Source: Patescibacteria group bacterium
GTDB taxonomy: Bacteria; Patescibacteriota; Minisyncoccia; UBA6257; Brennerbacteraceae
Direction of reading: 5' to 3'
Assembly (NCBI GenBank): GCA_040753135.1
Contig: JBFMGR010000001.1
Location: 59,252 to 123,251 of the forward strand
DNA length: 64,000 bases
Shown: positions 1,710 through 60,905 of the stretch, piece after piece
Numbering within the stretch: the stretch's first letter is position 1
Layout of the letters: every line of letters begins with the position of its first letter
Notes under the pieces: model-generated
The model's database searches: none
What the model was told of the DNA's origin: nothing
The model's input: only the letters and a program-made list of their open reading frames with translations
Made by a program: the position numbers and the translations under genes

Positions 1710-1727
1710 ATAAAATAAATATTAAAA

Positions 1728-1763
1728 TAACATTCCAACATTCTTAAGAATGTTGGAATGTTA
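1728..1763. terminator. Perfect palindrome taacattccaacattcttaagaatgttggaatgtta. It could act as a bidirectional terminator and/or an operator. This is copy 1 of 3.
   Basis: The perfect inverted repeat is read directly. It lies between the convergent ORF 1344–1709 (+) and the ArsR gene (−). Confidence 0.5.
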
Positions 1764-2028
1764 TTATGAATTTGACAAGCTCGTGGCCGTAAGGGGAAAG
1801 TGAATGTAATACGTTTCGCCCCTGATATTTTTTATTAACCAGCCCTGCTTGAACTAGTCTTCTGGTATGCTCGGAAATAGTTTTGATGTTGCAATTTAAT
1901 CTGTCTGCGATTTCTTCTACAGTTATCCCTTCAGTATTTTTGATCAATAATAGAATTTCAATCCGCCTGTGGTTCGCGATTCCTTTAAAATGCCGTTCTA
2001 ATTGTTTGCTTGTTTTAATTTTCTCCAT
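1744..2028 (-). CDS. ArsR/SmtB-family HTH transcriptional regulator. The listed ORF extends to a TTG at 2064, but the ATG at 2028 (MEKIK…) is the likelier start.
   Basis: HRRIEILLLI…ITVEEIADRLNCNIKTISEHTRRLVQAGLV is a typical ArsR winged-HTH signature. Confidence 0.7.
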   Translation of the reverse strand: MEKIKTSKQLERHFKGIANHRRIEILLLIKNTEGITVEEIADRLNCNIKTISEHTRRLVQAGLVNKKYQGRNVLHSLSPYGHELVKFIITFQHS

Positions 2029-2131: not shown

Positions 2132-2195
2132 GTCGGGTCGGGGAGAATCGCTCCGTTAGGCAACGGGGCGCCCTGTCGCCTGACAGGGCGAACTC
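2132..2195 (-). other. Orphan 3' piece of tRNA-Pro: GAGTTCG, two hairpins, then ATTCTCCCCGACCCGACA (T-loop 3' half, T-stem and acceptor 3' strand).
   Basis: Identical, apart from one base, to the hairpin-containing segment at 2592–2640. It ends with the tRNA-Pro acceptor 3' strand. Confidence 0.6.
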
Positions 2196-2232
2196 GGATT
2201 GCGCTTTCAAAAAGGATCGGGAGGGTCAATTA

Positions 2233-2307
2233 TGGTCGGGTCGGGGAGAATCGAACTCCCATCGCAGGACCCCCAGCCCTGCATACTAACCATTGTACTA
2301 CGACCCG
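2233..2307 (-). tRNA. tRNA-Pro (anticodon GGG), intact, with CCA encoded.
   Basis: A manual cloverleaf gives acceptor CGGGTCG/CGACCCG, D-stem GTAC/GTAT, anticodon loop CTGGGGG, T-arm GGGAG-TTCGATT-CTCCC, discriminator A and CCA. Confidence 0.8.
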
Positions 2308-2570
2308 ATTGATTTTAATTTTTTAAGCGCTTCTCGATATTGTTTATTAAATAATCGTTTTCCTTCTGTTGTTTTCAAAAACCGTTCCCTTCTTCTGGCG
2401 TCGTTTTCATTTTGATAAGCTTCGTATCCGATAAAAGAAATTGGCCTTCTGTGTTTTGTTGATTTAACTTTGCCGCGTTTGTGTTCTTCAATTCTTTCCC
2501 GCAACCGCTTTGTTAAACCAGTGTAAACCTGATTATTTTTTAAAAGAAGAAAATAAACATAAGTAAACAT
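2298..2570 (-). CDS. GIY-YIG nuclease family protein (UPF0213/YhbQ-like, ~91 aa). Its last codons overlap the 5' end of tRNA-Pro.
   Basis: The N-terminus MFTYVYFLLLKNNQVYTGLTKRLRERIEEH…YEAYQNENDARRRERFLK carries GIY…YIG/R/E hallmarks. The ATG at 2570 follows the hairpin region. Confidence 0.75.
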   Translation of the reverse strand: MFTYVYFLLLKNNQVYTGLTKRLRERIEEHKRGKVKSTKHRRPISFIGYEAYQNENDARRRERFLKTTEGKRLFNKQYREALKKLKSIGS

Positions 2571-2591
2571 AGATGATACTTTATAAGGAAT

Positions 2592-2687
2592 CGCCCCGTT
2601 AGGCAACGGGGCGCCCTGTCGCCTGACAGGGCGAACTCCCATCGCAGGACCCCCAGCCCTGCATACTAACCATTGTACTACGACCCG
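2592..2687 (-). pseudogene. Second tRNA-Pro 5' portion (acceptor through the 5' T-stem plus TTCG), then two tandem hairpins (ccctgtcaggcgacaggg and cgccccgttgcctaacggggcg) in place of the rest of the T-loop. A split or interrupted tRNA-Pro copy.
   Basis: 2636–2687 is identical to the 5' 52 nt of the intact tRNA-Pro; 2592–2631 are two perfect stem-loops. Confidence 0.6.
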
Positions 2688-2777
2688 ATAGATTTTTTTG
2701 AATTATGAATTATAAATAATGAATGATGAGTAATGAATTGAGAATGTTCTTTTTATAATAATAGAATTTTTTAAACT

Positions 2778-2803: not shown

Positions 2804-2870
2804 AGTTTTTGTTATATTGAAAATTTGAATTTAAGATTTTATTTAGAAATTAGAAATTAGGAATTTTCCT

Positions 2871-3959: not shown

Positions 3960-4038
3960 GAGATCCGATAAAGCCAGAAAAATTGAAAGCTGCTTAGAAA
4001 TTAGGAATTGGAAATTGGGAATTATGCTATAGTATTTT

Positions 4039-28220: not shown

Positions 28221-28287
28221 ATTTGTCAAGAGTTCGCAATTTAACAATTAGGAATTAGAAATTGGAAATTAGGAATTATTTATTGGC

Positions 28288-30840: not shown

Positions 30841-31332
30841 TTTTAAATCCAAAATTCCAATAACCAAAATTTTTAGCTACGGGTTGATTCGCTTTTAGCA
30901 GACAATTTTCAGATAATTCTAAAAGCCCAAAATTTAAAAAATGTTTAAATGAAAACAGGGGCGCCATTGGCACCCCTGATGTTTTTTCGCCCGGGAGTGT
31001 AATTTCTGCCCCCGGGCATTAGACGCGTGGGCAACCCGAGACTATGTCTCGGGTTGCCCGATCAGTATATTTATTATAGCAAGAAAAAATACCGCTGTCA
31101 AACGCAGGAATAGTTCAATTTAGGATTTCTTAATTTATTGAAGTCTCACTTCAATAAATTGTTTTCCGCGTCTAAAGAAGTCGGGCTTCTAAAACTAGGT
31201 CTTTATGGAAACCAATATGTTTCTGAACTTATGCAGATTTTAAGATATCAATATCGCTGGTCTTTAAGAATATTTTAAGATTTGTGGATTTATTTAGAAA
31301 TTAGATATTAGGAATTAGATATTGCCAACGCT

Positions 31333-35985: not shown

Positions 35986-36672
35986 ATGAATCCTCGGCAA
36001 AAGCAAATCCTTTCCGCTTTAATTGACGATTATGTCAAAGAAGTTAAGCCAATTAGCTCTAATTTTTTAGTTGAACAGCATCATCTGGATTTTAGTCCGG
36101 CAACAGTCAGGAACGAGCTGGCTCAGCTTTTGGCTGAAGGCTATTTGAGGAAAATCTATTTTTCCTCCGGCAATTTGCCAACCAACAAAGCTTATCGGTT
36201 TTTAGTTGAGCAGATTTTAGGAGAGGAGGTCTTGGCAGCAGAATTAGAATTTGGTTTGGAGCCGGAAATAGAGTCTTTGTCTGAATTAGTCAAACTTCTA
36301 AGCCGCCAGCTCGGTTTATTAACTGCTGGGATTGACCAGGATTTGAATTTGTTTGTTGATGGTTTGGAGGAGTTGTTTAATCAGCCGGATTTTGAGACCC
36401 GGGTCCAGTATCTGGCTTTGGGCCGGGTGGTAGATTTTTTGCGGGAAGCAAGGGAAGAGATTTTTAAAAAAGCGGAGAATCTCCCGGCGGCAATGTTTGT
36501 TGGCAGGAAAAATCCTTTTTATCAGGGCAGCGATGAGTTAAGCTGGCTGGTTAGCGGCCCCGGGGAAAATTGCTCCCCTGGAGTTTTAATCAGCATCGGA
36601 CCAACCAGAATGTTTTACAAAAAAAACTGGCAGACATTTTGTCGCCTGAAGGATTGTTTTTTTAAAGATTAA
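35986..36672 (+). CDS. hrcA: Heat-inducible transcription repressor HrcA (short form, 228 aa).
   Basis: The N-terminal winged HTH (RQKQILSALIDDYV…SPATVRNELAQLLAEGYL…GNLPTNKAYRF) matches HrcA; it is followed by grpE–dnaK. Confidence 0.6.
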   Translation: MNPRQKQILSALIDDYVKEVKPISSNFLVEQHHLDFSPATVRNELAQLLAEGYLRKIYFSSGNLPTNKAYRFLVEQILGEEVLAAELEFGLEPEIESLSELVKLLSRQLGLLTAGIDQDLNLFVDGLEELFNQPDFETRVQYLALGRVVDFLREAREEIFKKAENLPAAMFVGRKNPFYQGSDELSWLVSGPGENCSPGVLISIGPTRMFYKKNWQTFCRLKDCFFKD

Positions 36673-40267: not shown

Positions 40268-40407
40268 AAATCCTAAATCCTAAATAAATTAAAATGACCA
40301 AAATTGAAAATGTAAAACAGTTTAGAATTTGGATATTGGGATTTTGGAATTGTTTAGGGCTTAGATATTAGAATTTAGAATTTATAGACAAGATTTGTAA
40401 ATTAGCA
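40268..40407 (+). repeat. ~135-nt intergenic repeat, copy A; ~88% identical to 48614–48746.
   Basis: Direct alignment of the two regions; both lie immediately upstream of a + strand gene. Confidence 0.6.
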
Positions 40408-41173: not shown

Positions 41174-41301
41174 TGCCATGGATCCCGTTAGAAATTCAAC
41201 GATAATTAAACGAATTAAGTTTTTGATTAAGGCAAAACCGACAACTATCTTCGTATTATTGAATAAAGAATTAACTTGCTTAAATTTCTAACGGGATGGA
41301 T
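41174..41301 (+). mobile_element. Second copy of the MITE-like element; it ends in the ATG of rmuC.
   Basis: Aligns to 13376–13503 with conserved terminal inverted repeats. Confidence 0.6.
41178..41291 (+). CDS. Small ORF, copy 2 (MDPVRNSTIIKRIKFLIKAKPTTIFVLLNKELTCLNF).
   Basis: Same 37-codon length and frame as 13380–13493; its stop lies 4 nt before the rmuC ATG. Confidence 0.45.
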   Translation: MDPVRNSTIIKRIKFLIKAKPTTIFVLLNKELTCLNF

Positions 41302-42336
41302 ATTATTTTAGTGATTGTAATTTTGGGGTTTGTGGTTTTGGCGTTTATTTTTGGCTTTGTCATTTATCTGCTTTTAAAAAAACAGCAAGACGACCAGATT
41401 CAAAATCAGTCAATCAATTCTTTAGGCGAGTCAATCTCCAAGATGCAGGTTCAGCTGATGGAGCATTTGGCCAATCAATTAAGCGCGGTTAGGGGCAGTT
41501 TGGATAATACTGTGGGCAAAAACATTCAGCGGTTTTCCGAAGAGTTTGTTGGCGTTAAAGAAGATTTAAAAAGAGTCGGCGAGATTTACCAAAGCGTTGA
41601 CAATCTTCAAAAAATCTTTAAATCGCCAAAGCTACGGGGCAACTGGGGCGAGGCATCTCTTGAGCATCTGCTTTCCCAGCACTATCCCAAAGAGCTTTAC
41701 GACCTTCAGCATATGTTTTCTTCAGGCGAACGGGCCGATGCGGCGTTTAAACTGCCCGATGGCAAGATAATTGCGATTGATGCCAAATTCCCTTTGGAAA
41801 ACTTTTCCAAACTTCAAGTGGTGGAAACTGATCTGGAGAAAGAAGCAATAGAAAAAACCTTTATCCAGGATGTTAAAGCCCGGATTGACGAGATTGGCCA
41901 AAAATACATTTTGCCCTCAGAGGGGACTTTGGATTACGCGATTATGTATGTGCCGGCTGAAGCGGTTTATTATGAGATCGTTAATCCGGCGACCAAAGCA
42001 AGCAAGGACGACTTGATTTCTTATGCTTGGTCTAAGAAAGTGATTATTGCTTCGCCAAATCTGTTTTACCTGACTTTAAAAACAGTTGAGCATTGGTTTC
42101 GTGATGTTCAGATTTCTAAACAAACCCAAGGTATTTTAAAGAGATTTGAGAGAATCAGAAAAGACGGCGAAAAATTAGCTGAAGATTTCCGGCTTTTGGG
42201 CAAGCACCTGGGCAATGCCCAGTCAGCTTTTAACAACACTGAAAAACGGCTTGATTTAATGGTTGGCAAAGTTGACCAATTAACCTCAATTAAAGTTAAA
42301 GGCGAGCTAGAAGAACCGGAAGGGGAAAGTGAATGA
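41296..42336 (+). CDS. rmuC: DNA recombination protein RmuC.
   Basis: N-terminal transmembrane segment, long coiled coil, C-terminal nuclease-like region (…AIDAKFPLENF…). Confidence 0.6.
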   Translation: MDIILVIVILGFVVLAFIFGFVIYLLLKKQQDDQIQNQSINSLGESISKMQVQLMEHLANQLSAVRGSLDNTVGKNIQRFSEEFVGVKEDLKRVGEIYQSVDNLQKIFKSPKLRGNWGEASLEHLLSQHYPKELYDLQHMFSSGERADAAFKLPDGKIIAIDAKFPLENFSKLQVVETDLEKEAIEKTFIQDVKARIDEIGQKYILPSEGTLDYAIMYVPAEAVYYEIVNPATKASKDDLISYAWSKKVIIASPNLFYLTLKTVEHWFRDVQISKQTQGILKRFERIRKDGEKLAEDFRLLGKHLGNAQSAFNNTEKRLDLMVGKVDQLTSIKVKGELEEPEGESE

Positions 42337-42545
42337 TGAATCAGGAATGATGAATTAATCTCCTTAATATTTTATCAGCGAATAGCGGATTTATACGAAT
42401 AAATGAATGAAATAAATCAAAAGTCAAAATGACAGATTAAAATGTAAAAAAATCTCAAAATTTGAAAAAATTTAAACCTCTGAAAATTGAAATATTGAAA
42501 ATTCATTGAAAATTGAAAATTAGAAATTAGAAATTCTTTAGGTTT

Positions 42546-43283
42546 ATGCTAGACACCACCCATGTTTTAACTGGTTTGGTTATTGGCAAGTATCTGAAAA
42601 ATCCTATCTTGGCTTTTGGCGCTGGAGTTTTGTCCCATTTTGTTTTAGACGCCATTCCTCATTGGGATGGAACAAAGACGCTTAATGCGTCTTTGTTCCG
42701 AAGCGAAGCGAAGGTGGGAGAAAAGACTTTTTCAAAGTCTTTTCTCCGCAGTGAGGCGAGCGAAGAAACAAAGAGAGCTGGCGTAGCTTTGTTGCGAGCC
42801 GAACAAGGTGGAACAAAGACGCTTAATGCGTCTTTGTTCCGAAGCGAAGCGGAGGTGGAAGGAAAGACGCTTAATGCGTCTTTGTTCCGAGCGGAGCGAG
42901 ATGGAGAAGGGGGGCTAAATGATGCTGAATGCCGAATAAGATTCACCCGAGAGGGCAAGATTATTTTAGGCCTAGATATCTTAATCAGTTTGATTATTTT
43001 TTTATTTCTATCAATCAAAGGCCCGCTCTGGCCCGATTTTCCTAACCCTAATTCGTTATTCATCATTCTTCATTCTAATTTGTCCTGGGTTGCCGGAGTT
43101 TTTGGCGCTTTATTGCCGGACATTTTATTATTGGCTTATATTTTTTATCCTTCAGCCAAATTAAAAAAGCTTTCTGTTTTTGAATTCCATAAAAATATCC
43201 AAAGAAAAATTCCAATGATTCCGGGGTTGGTCTTTCAGTTAATCTGGATTAGTTTTTGCTTGTATTTTTTTGTTTTATCTTGA
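42546..43283 (+). CDS. YdjM/DUF457-like membrane-bound metal-dependent hydrolase, carrying an in-frame ~75-aa hairpin-repeat insertion.
   Basis: N-terminal HVLTGLVIGKYL…SHFVLDAIPHWD and C-terminal GALLPDILLLAY motifs; the middle is encoded by the tandem hairpin array. Confidence 0.5.
   Translation: MLDTTHVLTGLVIGKYLKNPILAFGAGVLSHFVLDAIPHWDGTKTLNASLFRSEAKVGEKTFSKSFLRSEASEETKRAGVALLRAEQGGTKTLNASLFRSEAEVEGKTLNASLFRAERDGEGGLNDAECRIRFTREGKIILGLDILISLIIFLFLSIKGPLWPDFPNPNSLFIILHSNLSWVAGVFGALLPDILLLAYIFYPSAKLKKLSVFEFHKNIQRKIPMIPGLVFQLIWISFCLYFFVLS
42669..42890. repeat. Array of five ~45-bp units, each holding a perfect hairpin (for example ggaacaaagacgc-ttaat-gcgtctttgttcc), embedded in-frame in the ydjM-like gene.
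   Basis: Units 1, 4 and 5 are near-identical. Units 2 and 3 differ in sequence but stay palindromic, i.e. the changes are compensatory. Confidence 0.7.
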
Positions 43284-43313
43284 CAAAAGGGGAAGATAGA
43301 TTATAATGACTTA

Positions 43314-43340
43314 TTAGCAATCTATATTGTAGATTGCTAA
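43314..43340 (+). promoter_or_regulatory. CIRCE operator TTAGCAATC-N9-GATTGCTAA upstream of groES.
   Basis: Perfect 9-bp inverted repeat with a 9-nt spacer, ~30 nt upstream of the groES start. Confidence 0.7.
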
Positions 43341-43367
43341 TTAAATAATTAACTGATTAAAAGAGTT

Positions 43368-45441: not shown

Positions 45442-45480
45442 AAAGAGGGCAAAGCTTATAGATTTAAGATTTAAGAAAAC

Positions 45481-45520
45481 AATATTCCAACATTCTTGAG
45501 AATGTTGGAATATTGTTTTT
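45481..45520 (+). terminator. Copy 3 of the palindrome aatattccaacattcttgagaatgttggaatatt followed by ttttt; the groEL terminator.
   Basis: Perfect 15-bp stem plus T-run, 40 nt after the groEL stop. Confidence 0.6.
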
Positions 45521-46336: not shown

Positions 46337-46452
46337 ATAGCGAGACAATTTTCAATTTTCAATGGAATTGGCTTGTTTTAAGTTTTGTTTTATAATACTG
46401 TTTAGAATTAAAAGTTAGTAATTACTAATTAGAAATTAGGAATTATTCCCTT

Positions 46453-48620: not shown

Positions 48621-48746
48621 AATAAATTCAAATGACCAAAATTAAAAATCCAGAACTGTTTAGAATTTAGGCATTGGGATTTTGGAATTATTTAGGGCTT
48701 AGATATTAGAATTTAGAATTTATAGATAAGATTCGTAGATTAGTGT
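48614..48746 (+). repeat. ~135-nt intergenic repeat, copy B, upstream of ftsE.
   Basis: ~88% identity to 40268–40407. Confidence 0.6.
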
Positions 48747-60863: not shown

Positions 60864-60871
60864 TTTTAGGA

Positions 60872-60905
60872 AGTCTCACTTCAATATATTGAAGTGAGAC
60901 TTCAA
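60872..60905. terminator. Perfect 34-nt palindrome gaagtctcacttcaatatattgaagtgagacttc. A related half-site occurs at 31127–31143.
   Basis: 14-bp perfect stem immediately after the stop of 59490–60863. Confidence 0.55.

What the first reader, a model, noticed from the sequence alone, without database searches (positions are those of the whole stretch)
42669..42890. In-frame array of five hairpin units inside a ydjM-like membrane hydrolase gene, with compensatory changes preserving the stems
Five consecutive units sit in-frame in the gene. Units 1, 4 and 5 are almost identical (ggaacaaagacgc-ttaat-gcgtctttgttcc + gaagcgaagcg). Units 2 (gagaaaagact…agtcttttctc) and 3 have diverged in sequence but remain palindromic. 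That points to selection on nucleic-acid structure rather than only on the encoded repeat (K-T-x-x-x-S-L-F-R-S-E).
The array interrupts a DUF457/YdjM-like protein between its N-terminal His motifs and C-terminal transmembrane helices, adding ~75 aa.
The array resembles neither a CRISPR array (no unique spacers, no cas genes) nor a classic REP cluster (it is intragenic and in-frame).
Basis: seen in the sequence. Interest (0 to 1): 0.6.

Follow-up and report, generated by a model that had tools for sequence, protein, structure and literature searches.

The report
In-frame hairpin repeats from self-copied codons
A membrane-protein gene of an uncultured Patescibacteria (CPR) bacterium carries five in-frame 45-48-base repeats that each fold into a hairpin. 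The hairpin most likely arose when the replication machinery copied the gene's own codons backwards, so it is probably a mutational curiosity and need not be a regulatory element or a mobile element.

Summary
Five in-frame units (48, 48, 45, 48 and 45 nt; 42669-42902) sit after the conserved H-W-D motif of a distant YdjM-like membrane protein. Units 1, 2 and 4 are perfect 13-14 bp hairpins. Units 3 and 5 are decaying.

Syntenic orthologues (RmuC-X-GroES-GroEL) decide the reading.
- The two closest carry one hairpin at the same codon. One differs from unit 1 by three fully compensated base pairs.
- More distant orthologues have no hairpin but keep the D-G-x-K-T codons that form the 5' arm. The 5' arm is therefore native and the 3' arm is its reverse-complement copy.
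- In one orthologue the complementarity extends about 30 nt further, into the native F-L-L-D-A-L-P-H-W codons.

No other copy exists in the 64-kb window or in 54 kb of orthologous loci. No other protein among 1.84 billion representatives carries the peptide.

Best explanation: a replication template switch created the palindrome, later switches kept its arms matched, and this lineage then amplified the unit in tandem. The peptide is a by-product.

Selection on structure is not needed to explain the compensatory changes, but it is not excluded. The array is not CRISPR, REP, CIRCE, a terminator or a dispersed RPE-like element.

The parts
42546..43283 (+). ORF of 245 aa: a distant YdjM (PF04307)-like membrane protein. 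It is NCBI locus AB1721_00660 of a Patescibacteria-group MAG.
   Evidence: ORF list. 100% match to P0001. Weak PF04307 hits in the family. AlphaFold core pLDDT 81-98.
42546..42668 (+). Native N-terminal core, codons 1-41, ending in the invariant S30-H31-F32..D35..P38-H39-W40 motif followed by conserved D41.
   Evidence: Invariant columns in alignments A1, A3 and A5. Nucleotide identity to L001 and L002 is 78%.
42669..42716 (+). Unit 1 (48 nt). The hairpin is GGAACAAAGACGC-TTAAT-GCGTCTTTGTTCC (42669-42699) and is followed by the linker GAAGCGAAGCGAAGGTG. The 5' arm is made of the native G-T-K-T codons.
   Evidence: Orthologue alignment A6.
42717..42764 (+). Unit 2 (48 nt). The hairpin is GGAGAAAAGACTTT-TTC-AAAGTCTTTTCTCC (42717-42747): 14 bp, with both arms changed relative to unit 1.
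   Evidence: A decayed counterpart of this unit is visible in L002, and possibly in L001, by eye.
42765..42809 (+). Unit 3 (45 nt). A decayed hairpin, GAAACAAAGAGAG-CTGGC-GTAGCTTTGTTGC, with 9 of 13 pairs.
   Evidence: Model R2 scores it 33.6 bits.
42810..42857 (+). Unit 4 (48 nt). It is identical to unit 1 over its first 42 nt.
42858..42902 (+). Unit 5 (45 nt). The 3' arm is identical to that of units 1 and 4. The 5' arm has three uncompensated changes (GAAGGAAAGACGC).
42903..43283 (+). Native remainder of the gene: a short G/E-rich linker followed by the C-terminal helices with the conserved P191-D192 and F214-H215.
   Evidence: Alignments A1 and A5. AlphaFold pLDDT 81-96 from about residue 131.

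Best explanation
The hairpin began as a short inverted duplication of the gene's own codons. During replication the nascent strand switched template and copied the codons for G-x-K-T backwards, just downstream of the catalytic H-W-D motif.

This placed a reverse-complement 3' arm after a 5-nt loop, inside a surface loop of the membrane protein that tolerates extra residues. The palindrome was then inherited vertically in a small Patescibacteria clade.

Further template switches between the arms kept them complementary. A change in one arm is copied to the other, which looks like compensatory evolution. In one orthologue the palindrome grew outward into neighbouring native codons.

In the lineage of this window, the unit of hairpin plus the following R-S/A-E-A linker codons was amplified in tandem to five copies, by slippage or unequal recombination. 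Only lengths that are multiples of 3 and free of stop codons survived, because the C-terminal half of the protein is still needed.

The 16-residue peptide repeat is a by-product. The hairpins need no dedicated function, although as stable mRNA stems they probably slow translation of this gene somewhat.

Shown here: the anatomy, the native 5' arm, the paired changes, the extended complementarity in L001, the absence of other copies, and the poorly ordered insert. Inferred: the template-switch mechanism itself, the order of events, and neutrality.
For: 1. **Same site in syntenic orthologues.** All lie in RmuC-X-GroES-GroEL.
   - L001 has one perfect 13-bp hairpin with a TTAAT loop, GGAGCGAAGACAC/GTGTCTTCGCTCC. 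Three pairs differ from unit 1, all on both sides.
   - L002 has an 11-pair stem with one G-T pair.
   - RNA fold z-scores are -8.25 for L001 and -3.2 for L002. L004, L005, L220 and L221 give z between -0.3 and +0.9.
2. **The 5' arm is native.** Hairpin-free orthologues keep H-W-D-G-x-K-(T/R/S); L220 reads GAT AAG ACT. In alignment A3, G42 and K44 are invariant.
3. **Extended palindrome in L001.** The complementarity continues beyond the hairpin: TTTCTTCTCGACGCCCTCCCCCATTGGG (native F-L-L-D-A-L-P-H-W codons) pairs with CCCAATGGGGTTGAGGTAGGACAAGAAA. That is 28 nt at 71%, with a perfect 10-nt core. The local alignment scores 23 against 12.9 +/- 2.1 in shuffles, reached by 4 of 2000. It replaces the linker seen in the other two orthologues as a clustered multi-base change.
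4. **The divergence is old.** Third-codon identity between the window and L001 is 0.40-0.61. An unmaintained perfect palindrome would have decayed. The amino-acid changes in the arms are non-conservative, so the peptide is not what is being kept.
5. **The unit is not dispersed.** Covariance model R2 finds only the five units in the 64-kb window; the next hit scores 18 bits. It finds only the orthologous site in 54 kb of related loci. The 82-aa peptide matches only itself among 1.84 billion representatives. blastn finds nothing in phages or plasmids.
6. **The insert is poorly ordered.** AlphaFold gives pLDDT 45-74 for residues 41-130, against 81-98 for the flanking core.
7. **The mechanism is documented.** Template switching creates perfect stems and multi-base compensatory changes in one event (PMC8794818). 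It homogenises inverted-repeat arms inside coding DNA (PMC8604942). Quasipalindromes are template-switch hotspots in E. coli (PMC7202029).
Against: - Only three hairpin-bearing orthologues are available. No ancestral reconstruction was possible, and no single mutational event was observed.
- Significant complementarity beyond the hairpin is found only in L001. It is not found in the window or in L002.
- Neutral maintenance and selection on structure predict the same paired changes. The persistence of perfect stems across old divergence is equally what a selected hairpin would show.
- Of the non-Watson-Crick cells, 3 are G-U and 1 is A-C. This is a faint lean towards sense-strand RNA pairing, but the numbers are far too small to weigh.
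- The array is richer in GC (0.50; linkers 0.62) than the rest of the gene (0.37). A/E/R/G codons can explain this, but a foreign origin would fit it too.
- The copy number rests on one short-read MAG.
Confidence: 0.5

Rival explanations
1. The hairpins are functional nucleic-acid structures kept by selection. One possibility is mRNA stems that pause ribosomes after the first two helices of the membrane protein have been made, or that control mRNA decay or processing within the heat-shock gene cluster. Another is DNA cruciforms recognised by a protein. Whatever its origin, the stem would then be maintained because it works.
For: - Perfect stems persist in three species despite near-saturated synonymous divergence, with changes on both sides.
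- In the window, units 1, 2 and 4 remain perfect although units 3 and 5 decay.
- G-U exceeds A-C among the imperfect cells, 3 against 1.
- The gene sits in the hrcA-grpE-dnaK-dnaJ-rmuC-X-groES-groEL cluster.
Against: - No Rfam family matches. There is no terminator tail, and by eye I saw no slippery site or operator-like conservation.
- The stem sequence varies while the pairing is kept, which argues against a sequence-specific protein site.
- More distant orthologues of the same syntenic gene (L004, L005, L220, L221) do without any structure.
- groES has its own 12/12 consensus promoter and a CIRCE-like repeat downstream of the gene, so the array is not needed for groESL control.
- Template switching explains the paired changes without selection (PMC8794818).
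- Two of the five units are decaying.
Confidence: 0.2
2. A small mobile palindromic element landed in frame in this gene and then multiplied in tandem. It would be of the RPE, MITE or REP kind, and might be related to the REP-like hairpin element found here in uncultured Gammaproteobacteria ('class B').
For: - The core AAGACAC-TTAAT-GTGTCTT of L001 is identical to the inner hairpin of a dispersed structured element. That element lies after gene ends and next to tRNA genes in Gammaproteobacterial MAGs and JGI contigs.
- The model built on that element scores the window units at 15-36.6 bits and L001 at 41.4 bits.
- The motifs GGCGAGCG and GCGAGCCG in the window linkers resemble the head and tail of that element.
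- The array is richer in GC than the rest of the gene.
- In-frame palindromic elements are known in Rickettsia (PMC10969869).
Against: - The core match is there by construction, because the search pattern came from the window. Only about 12 independent bases are shared, and roughly 1 Tb of hairpin-rich sequence was scanned. 142 of 178 distinct contexts are hairpins, and 101 of those 142 are flanked by A/T runs like terminators, in many taxa.
- The flanks do not fit the class B model. The outer helix is absent, and the full-length alignment scores lower than the core alone.
- The 5' arm is native codons shared with hairpin-free orthologues.
- The linker motifs look explicable, by eye, as native A-E-E-R-type codons (compare L005).
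- There are no other copies in the 64-kb window or in 54 kb of related loci. The peptide occurs in no other protein.
- Only the ORFs of the heat-shock cluster and the GIY-YIG ORF were scanned against Pfam, so a transposase elsewhere in the window cannot be excluded.
Confidence: 0.12
3. The repeat is selected at the protein level, for example as amphipathic helical repeats that lengthen a loop. The palindromy would then be incidental.
For: - All unit lengths are multiples of three and the frame stays open.
- AlphaFold draws helices for residues 48-68 and 73-87.
- K-T-x-N and S-x-x-R recur in the orthologues.
Against: - The helices are of low confidence (pLDDT 45-74).
- The arm substitutions are non-conservative in the protein but always restore pairing.
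- The second half of each peptide is simply the translation of the reverse complement of the first half.
- No orthologue has the peptide without the palindrome.
- No similar peptide occurs in any other protein.
Confidence: 0.05
4. Assembly artefact: the tandem copies, or their number, result from mis-assembly of short reads in a repeat.
For: - There is a single MAG contig and no second record of this exact protein.
- Units 1 and 4 share an identical stretch of 42 nt.
Against: - Units 2, 3 and 5 are distinct in sequence, all are in frame, and the downstream reading frame is conserved.
- Orthologues from independent samples carry the hairpin at the same site, and L002 also has a decayed second unit.
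- Mis-assembly usually collapses repeats. It does not create diverged in-frame copies.
Confidence: 0.03

Closest known systems
Template-switch (quasipalindrome) mutations that create and maintain hairpins (Mönttinen & Löytynoja 2022, PMC8794818; Abraham & Hazkani-Covo 2021, PMC8604942; E. coli quasipalindrome hotspots, PMC7202029)
   Same: One arm is pre-existing sequence and the other is its reverse complement. Multi-base changes keep the arms paired. The complementarity can grow into flanking sequence. It occurs inside coding DNA and gives runs of amino-acid replacements without adaptive cause.
   Different: In this gene the product is a long stem of 13-14 bp, or about 94 nt of palindrome in L001. 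It has been kept across species in a bacterial protein-coding gene and then amplified to five in-frame tandem units. The published cases are rRNA stems and single short events in yeast and ape genomes. The mutational events themselves were not reconstructed here.
Rickettsia palindromic elements and other intragenic MITEs (review PMC10969869)
   Same: Palindromic DNA sits in frame inside a functional gene. It adds a peptide in a region of the protein that appears to tolerate it.
   Different: RPEs are about 150 bp, dispersed in dozens of copies in unrelated genes, and wholly foreign to the host gene. This unit is 45-48 bp, is confined to one gene, is arranged in tandem, and its 5' arm is the gene's own codons.
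REP/BIME-type extragenic palindromes, including the REP-like 'class B' element seen here in uncultured Gammaproteobacteria
   Same: A stable hairpin with a covarying stem. One class B subfamily has the identical 19-nt core AAGACAC-TTAAT-GTGTCTT.
   Different: Those elements are extragenic, dispersed, and have conserved head and tail motifs and an outer helix. The window units are intragenic, in frame, lack the outer helix, and are not dispersed.
CRISPR arrays
   Same: Regularly spaced palindromic repeats.
   Different: The 14-17-nt linkers are mutually similar and are not unique spacers. The period is 45-48 nt. The array lies inside a conserved ORF. No cas genes were noted in the parts of the window examined (not systematically scanned).

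Membership tests
Template-switch-derived inverted repeat | One arm is pre-existing (ancestral) sequence and the other is its reverse complement | tested here: met
   The G-x-K-T codons (GGN NNN AAG ACN) are present in hairpin-free orthologues L005, L220, L221 and L004. The 3' arm is present only in the window, L001 and L002.
Template-switch-derived inverted repeat | Clustered multi-base changes that restore or extend pairing | tested here: met
   Three pairs differ on both sides between the window and L001, and none is unpaired. L001 has a 28-nt extension, 71% complementary with a 10-nt perfect core, that reaches into native codons (4 of 2000 shuffles).
Template-switch-derived inverted repeat | A single-event origin shown by ancestral reconstruction or by direct observation | not testable with these tools
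   Only three hairpin-bearing orthologues exist in the searchable collections.
RPE / intragenic MITE | Many dispersed copies in unrelated genes or intergenic sites of the same genome | tested here: not met
   Model R2 finds only the five units in 64 kb and only the orthologous site in 54 kb of related loci. The rest of the genome could not be searched.
RPE / intragenic MITE | The same element-encoded peptide inserted into unrelated proteins | tested here: not met
   The 82-aa array peptide matches only P0001 among 1.84 billion representatives. A single 16-aa unit would be too short to detect.
RPE / intragenic MITE | The whole inserted palindrome is foreign to the host gene | tested here: not met
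   The 5' arm coincides with conserved native codons.
REP/BIME (RAYT-associated) | Extragenic location, a conserved head motif, and dispersed copies | tested here: not met
   The units are intragenic and in frame and are not dispersed. They lack the outer helix and the head and tail of the class B model. The presence of a RAYT gene was not tested.
CRISPR array | Identical repeats separated by unique spacers of similar length, plus cas genes | tested here: not met
   The linkers are variants of one another and the array lies inside a conserved ORF. The cas part of the definition was not systematically tested.
CIRCE (HrcA operator) | A 9-bp inverted repeat TTAGCACTC-N9-GAGTGCTAA upstream of chaperone genes | tested here: not met
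   The units bear no resemblance to it. A CIRCE-like TTAGCAATC-N9-GATTGCTAA lies separately at 43314-43340, upstream of groES.
Intrinsic terminator | A GC-rich stem followed by a run of U | tested here: not met
   The scan finds no terminator-like site in 42669-42902 on either strand.
YdjM / PF04307 (host protein) | A Pfam score at or above the gathering cutoff | tested here: inconclusive
   The window protein scores 12.9 bits against a cutoff of 29. Eight of nine relatives hit weakly (best E 4.7e-5), and many distant homologues carry precomputed PF04307. Foldseek against the PDB gives no match with E <= 0.001.
Any Rfam RNA family | A match at the gathering score | tested here: not met
   Only six tRNA genes are found in the window.

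The most novel reading that the evidence does not exclude
The hairpins are a selected structural element inside a coding region of a CPR bacterium. Whatever its origin, the stem would be kept because it does something. It might pace translation of a membrane protein embedded in the heat-shock and DNA-repair gene cluster. Or it might be recognised as a cruciform or hairpin by DNA-structure enzymes such as the adjacent RmuC. The tandem expansion would then tune the strength of that effect.

A second non-excluded reading is that the unit is a diverged, domesticated relative of the REP-like hairpin element of Gammaproteobacteria that entered a coding frame.
Probability: 0.15. Interest if true: 0.6.

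Novelty: new variant of a known kind. Interest (0 to 1): 0.35.

Why it matters
Compensatory base changes are usually taken as the strongest sign of a functional RNA or DNA structure. This locus is a clear bacterial, protein-coding counter-example.

Here one can see that one arm is the gene's own ancient codons, and in one relative the palindrome has grown into a catalytic-motif region. A purely mutational process is therefore enough to explain stems that are perfect and appear to covary.

It also shows that a template-switch product can become raw material for a new peptide repeat in a protein loop.

For genome scans, the practical lesson is to check whether one arm of an intragenic hairpin is ancestral before inferring selection on structure.

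Tried and rejected
- **Rfam on the window.** At gathering scores only tRNAs are found.
- **Public collection scans.** I searched genome contigs and metagenome contigs with AAGACNCTTAATGNGTCTT.
  - Of the 178 distinct contexts, 142 are hairpins, and 101 of those 142 are flanked by A/T runs like terminators, in unrelated taxa.
  - The exception is a REP-like family in Gammaproteobacteria ('class B'). I modelled it (R1).
  - I rejected it as the source of the array. Only the core matches, which is so by construction. The flanks and the outer helix do not fit. The window's 5' arm is native.
- **Literature search** for the core sequence: no paper.
- **Peptide-only search** in the 5.8-billion-protein index: nothing returned, not even the query protein itself, so it is uninformative. 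The exhaustive representative search returned only the query protein.
- **The look-up of encoding contigs** for the window protein: not on record.
- **Foldseek.** The afdb50 library was unavailable. The PDB search gave no hit with E <= 0.001.
- **blastn of the array** against phages and plasmids: no match.
- **Extended reverse-complement search** between the native upstream codons and the sequence after the hairpins. Significant only in L001, not in the window or L002.
- **Other readings considered and dropped.**
  - CRISPR: the linkers are not unique spacers.
  - CIRCE or another operator: the sequence varies and the real CIRCE-like site is elsewhere.
  - Cheo-type LexA box (GAAC-N4-GTTC): the spacing is wrong and the GAAC is not conserved in L001.
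  - Terminator or attenuator: no U-run.
  - -1 frameshift stimulator: I saw no slippery heptamer upstream, by eye.
  - The 135-aa minus-strand ORF 42659-43066: a mirror effect of stop-free palindromes.
Full report
**1. The observation**

The region holds a tandem array of period 48 (Tandem Repeats Finder: 42671-42899, 4.9 copies). It lies inside the + strand ORF 42546-43283 (245 aa). Counted from the start codon, the array begins at codon 42. It consists of five in-frame units of 48, 48, 45, 48 and 45 nt (42669-42902).

- Units 1 and 4 contain the perfect hairpin GGAACAAAGACGC-TTAAT-GCGTCTTTGTTCC.
- Unit 2 contains GGAGAAAAGACTTT-TTC-AAAGTCTTTTCTCC.
- Unit 5 keeps the 3' arm but has three uncompensated changes in the 5' arm.
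- Unit 3 keeps 9 of 13 pairs.

The 31-mer is not expected by chance: 0 matches in 100 shuffles. The region folds far better than shuffles, at -106.5 kcal/mol and z = -7.3. Most of the other long perfect hairpins in the 64-kb window sit at gene ends and look like terminators. I did not check every one against the ORF list. The only correction is that unit 3 is only partly palindromic.

**2. Host gene and neighbourhood**

The protein is identical to a hypothetical protein of a 'Patescibacteria group bacterium' MAG (AB1721_00660, contig 130,869 bp). It has no Pfam hit at default thresholds.

It does belong to a family whose members hit YdjM (PF04307) weakly. Eight of nine relatives hit, with best E 4.7e-5, and many distant homologues carry precomputed PF04307. 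'YdjM-like' is therefore acceptable, but the relationship is distant.

The invariant residues are H6, S30-H31-F32, D35, P38-H39-W40, P191-D192 and H215.

The gene lies in hrcA-grpE-dnaK-(333 aa)-dnaJ-rmuC-X-groES-groEL. groES has its own 12/12 consensus promoter, which overlaps the stop codon of X (43280-43307). A CIRCE-like repeat, TTAGCAATC-N9-GATTGCTAA, follows at 43314-43340.

An AlphaFold model built with a 26-sequence alignment is confident for residues 1-40 and about 131-245 (pLDDT 81-98). It is poor for the insert, residues 41-130 (pLDDT 45-74).

**3. Orthologues**

Seven syntenic orthologous loci were recovered.

- **L001** (177 aa, 63% identical) carries one perfect hairpin at exactly the same codon: GGAGCGAAGACAC-TTAAT-GTGTCTTCGCTCC. 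Compared with unit 1, three pairs differ, and each differs on both sides.
- **L002/L003** (196 aa) carry GGAGAGAAGAC-TATAAATGG-GTTTTCTCTCC, which is 11 pairs with one G-T pair. By eye they also carry a decayed relative of unit 2.
- **L004** has only short palindromes.
- **L005, L220 and L221** (169-171 aa) have none.

RNA folding agrees. The z-score is -8.25 for L001 and -3.2 for L002, and about zero for the other four.

Over the six distinct units, 91% of cells pair and 5 of 13 pairs show changes on both sides. No shuffle out of 500 reaches the observed covariation score.

Third-codon identity between the window and L001 is only 0.40-0.61. The species are therefore old relatives, and an unmaintained palindrome would have decayed. 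The arm changes translate into T->A, A->V, L->S and F->L. It is the pairing that is kept, not the peptide.

**4. Where the palindrome came from**

The hairpin-free orthologues still read H-W-D-G-D-K-(R/T/S) at this position. L220 has GAT AAG ACT, for example. G42 and K44 are invariant among the close orthologues. The 5' arm, GGA-nnn-AAG-AC, is therefore the gene's own sequence. Only the loop and the 3' arm are additional.

In L001 the complementarity does not stop at the hairpin. The native codons for F-L-L-D-A-L-P-H-W (TTTCTTCTCGACGCCCTCCCCCATTGGG) are matched downstream by CCCAATGGGGTTGAGGTAGGACAAGAAA. That is 28 nt at 71%, with a perfect 10-nt core. The alignment score is 23 against 12.9 +/- 2.1 in shuffles, reached by 4 of 2000. 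The result is a palindrome of about 94 nt centred on TTAAT, with a fold energy of -49.9 kcal/mol.

A run of ten bases complementary to a catalytic-motif region cannot have come with a foreign element. It is also very unlikely to have been built by point mutations. It is what a replication template switch produces.

Such switches are known to create perfect stems, to fix mismatches in existing stems as multi-base 'compensatory' changes, and to act inside coding DNA (PMC8794818, PMC8604942, PMC7202029).

The same test is not significant for the window or for L002. The extension is therefore specific to L001.

The linkers of the window (R-S-E-A-K-V, R-S-E-A-S-E, R-A-E-Q-G, R-S-E-A-E-V, R-A-E-R-D-G-E-G-G) resemble the native D-A-E-E-R-G-G that follows the motif in L005. 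I infer that the amplified unit was 'new 3' arm plus native linker'.

**5. Is it a dispersed element?**

A covariance model of the six units (R2), run without filters, finds only the five units in the window. The next hit scores 18 bits and is an AT-rich generic hairpin. In 54 kb of related loci it finds only the orthologous sites.

The 82-residue array peptide matches only its own protein among 1.84 billion representatives. blastn finds nothing in phage or plasmid collections.

**6. The collection scans and 'class B'**

The degenerate core AAGACNCTTAATGNGTCTT was scanned in both large collections. It gave 178 distinct contexts. In 142 of them the two N positions are complementary, and 101 of those are flanked by A or T runs. 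These are terminator hairpins in many unrelated taxa. Hairpins with this 12-nt arm-plus-loop are therefore simply common.

One group stood out. It occurs in uncultured Gammaproteobacteria (L009, L062, L088) and in about ten JGI contigs. It has this layout:

- a head, GGGYGAG;
- a covarying outer helix;
- an A-rich bulge;
- an inner hairpin, often xxxAAGACAC-TTAAT-GTGTCTTxxx;
- a tail, YGA(G/A)CG;
- one to five hairpins with CAWGGAWG loops.

On the alignment of 13 copies, 96.6% of cells are paired and 8 pairs change on both sides. Two kinds of site recur. The first is directly after stop codons: in L009 one copy lies between thiS and thiG, and another supplies the last nine codons and the stop of a PrpD-like ORF. 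The second is after a 5' fragment of a tRNA gene, followed by a duplicate of the upstream region and an intact tRNA. It has no Rfam family.

A model of this element (R1) scores the window units at 15-36.6 bits and L001 at 41.4 bits. But the core match is there by construction. The outer helix is flagged as unpaired in the window. The full-length alignment scores less than the core alone.

Other class B copies have unrelated inner hairpins. Together with the native 5' arm, I treat the resemblance as probably coincidental and keep a mobile origin as a minor rival.

**7. Mechanism and rivals**

Best explanation (0.5): a template switch created the palindrome, arm-to-arm switching maintained it, and the unit was amplified in tandem in frame in a permissive loop. 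The peptide is a by-product and no dedicated function is required.

Selection on an RNA or DNA structure (0.2) predicts the same paired changes and cannot be excluded. But it has no positive support. There is no known motif, terminator, slippery site or operator. More distant syntenic orthologues lack any structure, and two of the five units are decaying.

The remaining rivals are a mobile palindromic element (0.12), a protein-level repeat (0.05) and an assembly artefact (0.03).

The first two readings are not exclusive. A stem born by template switching could later have been recruited.

**8. Comparison with known systems**

In mechanism it resembles published template-switch hairpins. It differs in being long, kept across species in a bacterial ORF, and amplified in tandem.

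In outcome it resembles Rickettsia palindromic elements (PMC10969869). It fails their defining features of dispersal, foreign origin and the same peptide in unrelated proteins.

It is not a CRISPR array, a REP/BIME element, a CIRCE site or an intrinsic terminator (see the membership table).

**9. Verdict**

This is a real and unusual piece of sequence, with an explanation that is mostly mutational. It is a new variant of a known kind.

Its main value is as a cautionary and rather clean example that 'compensatory' stems inside genes need not be selected. Interest 0.35.

The most novel reading still open is a selected structural element in a CPR coding region, or a domesticated relative of class B. 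I give it a probability of about 0.15.

Noticed in passing
L009 1932-1990 and 5269-5327; L062 755-813 and 1050-1106; L088 1329-1387; L101 557-615; L106 1214-1272; L109 1930-1988; L136 2037-2095 and 2426-2477; L144 4298-4356; L146 68-126; L169 5279-5337 and 5495-5559; L170 589-647; L182 1994-2052 and 2606-2661; L211 1711-1769: A dispersed structured element in uncultured Gammaproteobacteria and JGI contigs, with no Rfam family. Its parts are a head GGGYGAG, a covarying outer helix, an inner hairpin (often AAGACAC-TTAAT-GTGTCTT), a tail YGA(G/A)CG, and one to five hairpins with CsrB-like CAWGGAWG loops. It lies right after stop codons (between thiS and thiG; at the PrpD-like 3' end). It also lies after a 5' fragment of a tRNA gene broken in the D-loop, followed by a duplicate of the upstream region and an intact tRNA (Arg, Val, Asn, Phe, Ser, Gly). 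Its nature is unresolved: it could be REP/BIME-like, a CsrA-binding RNA, or an element that targets tRNA genes.
   Followed up: partly
window 2146-2690 (- strand): An intact tRNA-Pro(ggg) lies at 2233-2307. A second copy of its first 57 nt (2634-2690) runs into a 44-nt GC-rich double hairpin (2589-2633) placed inside the T-loop. The same double hairpin recurs at 2146-2196, joined to the tRNA 3' end. Between them lies a 90-aa GIY-YIG ORF (2301-2570, PF01541, E 2.7e-12). It looks like a homing-endonuclease cassette that disrupted a tRNA gene and restored it.
   Followed up: partly
window 43280-43341: A perfect sigma-70 consensus promoter, TTGACA-16-TATAAT (12/12), overlaps the stop codon of the YdjM-like gene. 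It is followed by a CIRCE-like inverted repeat, TTAGCAATC-N9-GATTGCTAA, upstream of groES. An HrcA gene lies at 35986-36672.
   Followed up: partly
window 41296-42336: The gene immediately upstream of the hairpin array is RmuC (PF02646, E 2.8e-56). [quoted passage not shown] The adjacency is conserved in L001, L002 and L004 (L004 has no hairpin). In the hairpin-free L005 clade other genes, including uvrA, lie between RmuC and X. It is therefore probably a coincidence, but a curious one.
   Followed up: no
window 1726-1765 and 45476-45519; 31132-31160 and 60870-60903: Pairs of long terminator-like hairpins at gene ends share arm sequence: ATTCCAACATTC/GAATGTTGGAAT in one pair and GAAGTCTCACTTC in the other. 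These may be small families of recurring terminator hairpins.
   Followed up: no
window 2843-2865, 3994-4024, 28246-28278, 31294-31323, 40368-40384, 42517-42535, 46402-46445, 48706-48722: Short tandem 7-mers (TTAGAAA / AATTAGA, with AATTGAAAATT nearby) recur in the window; several, such as 42517-42535, 3994-4024 and 28246-28278, lie just upstream of an ORF start. They are candidates for a shared promoter-proximal or leader motif of this genome.
   Followed up: no
window 42659-43066 (- strand): A 135-aa antisense ORF spans the array. It stays open because stop-free palindromes are also stop-free on the other strand. It is very probably not a gene.
   Followed up: no
loci L008-L219 (pattern hits): The hairpin AAAAAGAC-N-C TTAAT G-N'-GTCTTTTT recurs as a terminator-like stem in many unrelated taxa, including Acinetobacter, Vibrio, SAR86, Bacillus and Melainabacteria. 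Of the 178 distinct contexts, 142 have complementary N positions, against 25% expected by chance.
   Followed up: partly
L004 1318-1345: At the orthologous site L004 reads GGAAGCAAGATCTTGACC, with a loop-less 10-nt palindrome CAAGATCTTG. This could be what remains after the centre of the ancestral hairpin was deleted (12 nt, or 4 codons, shorter than AAG ACG CTT AAT GCG TCT TTG).
   Followed up: no
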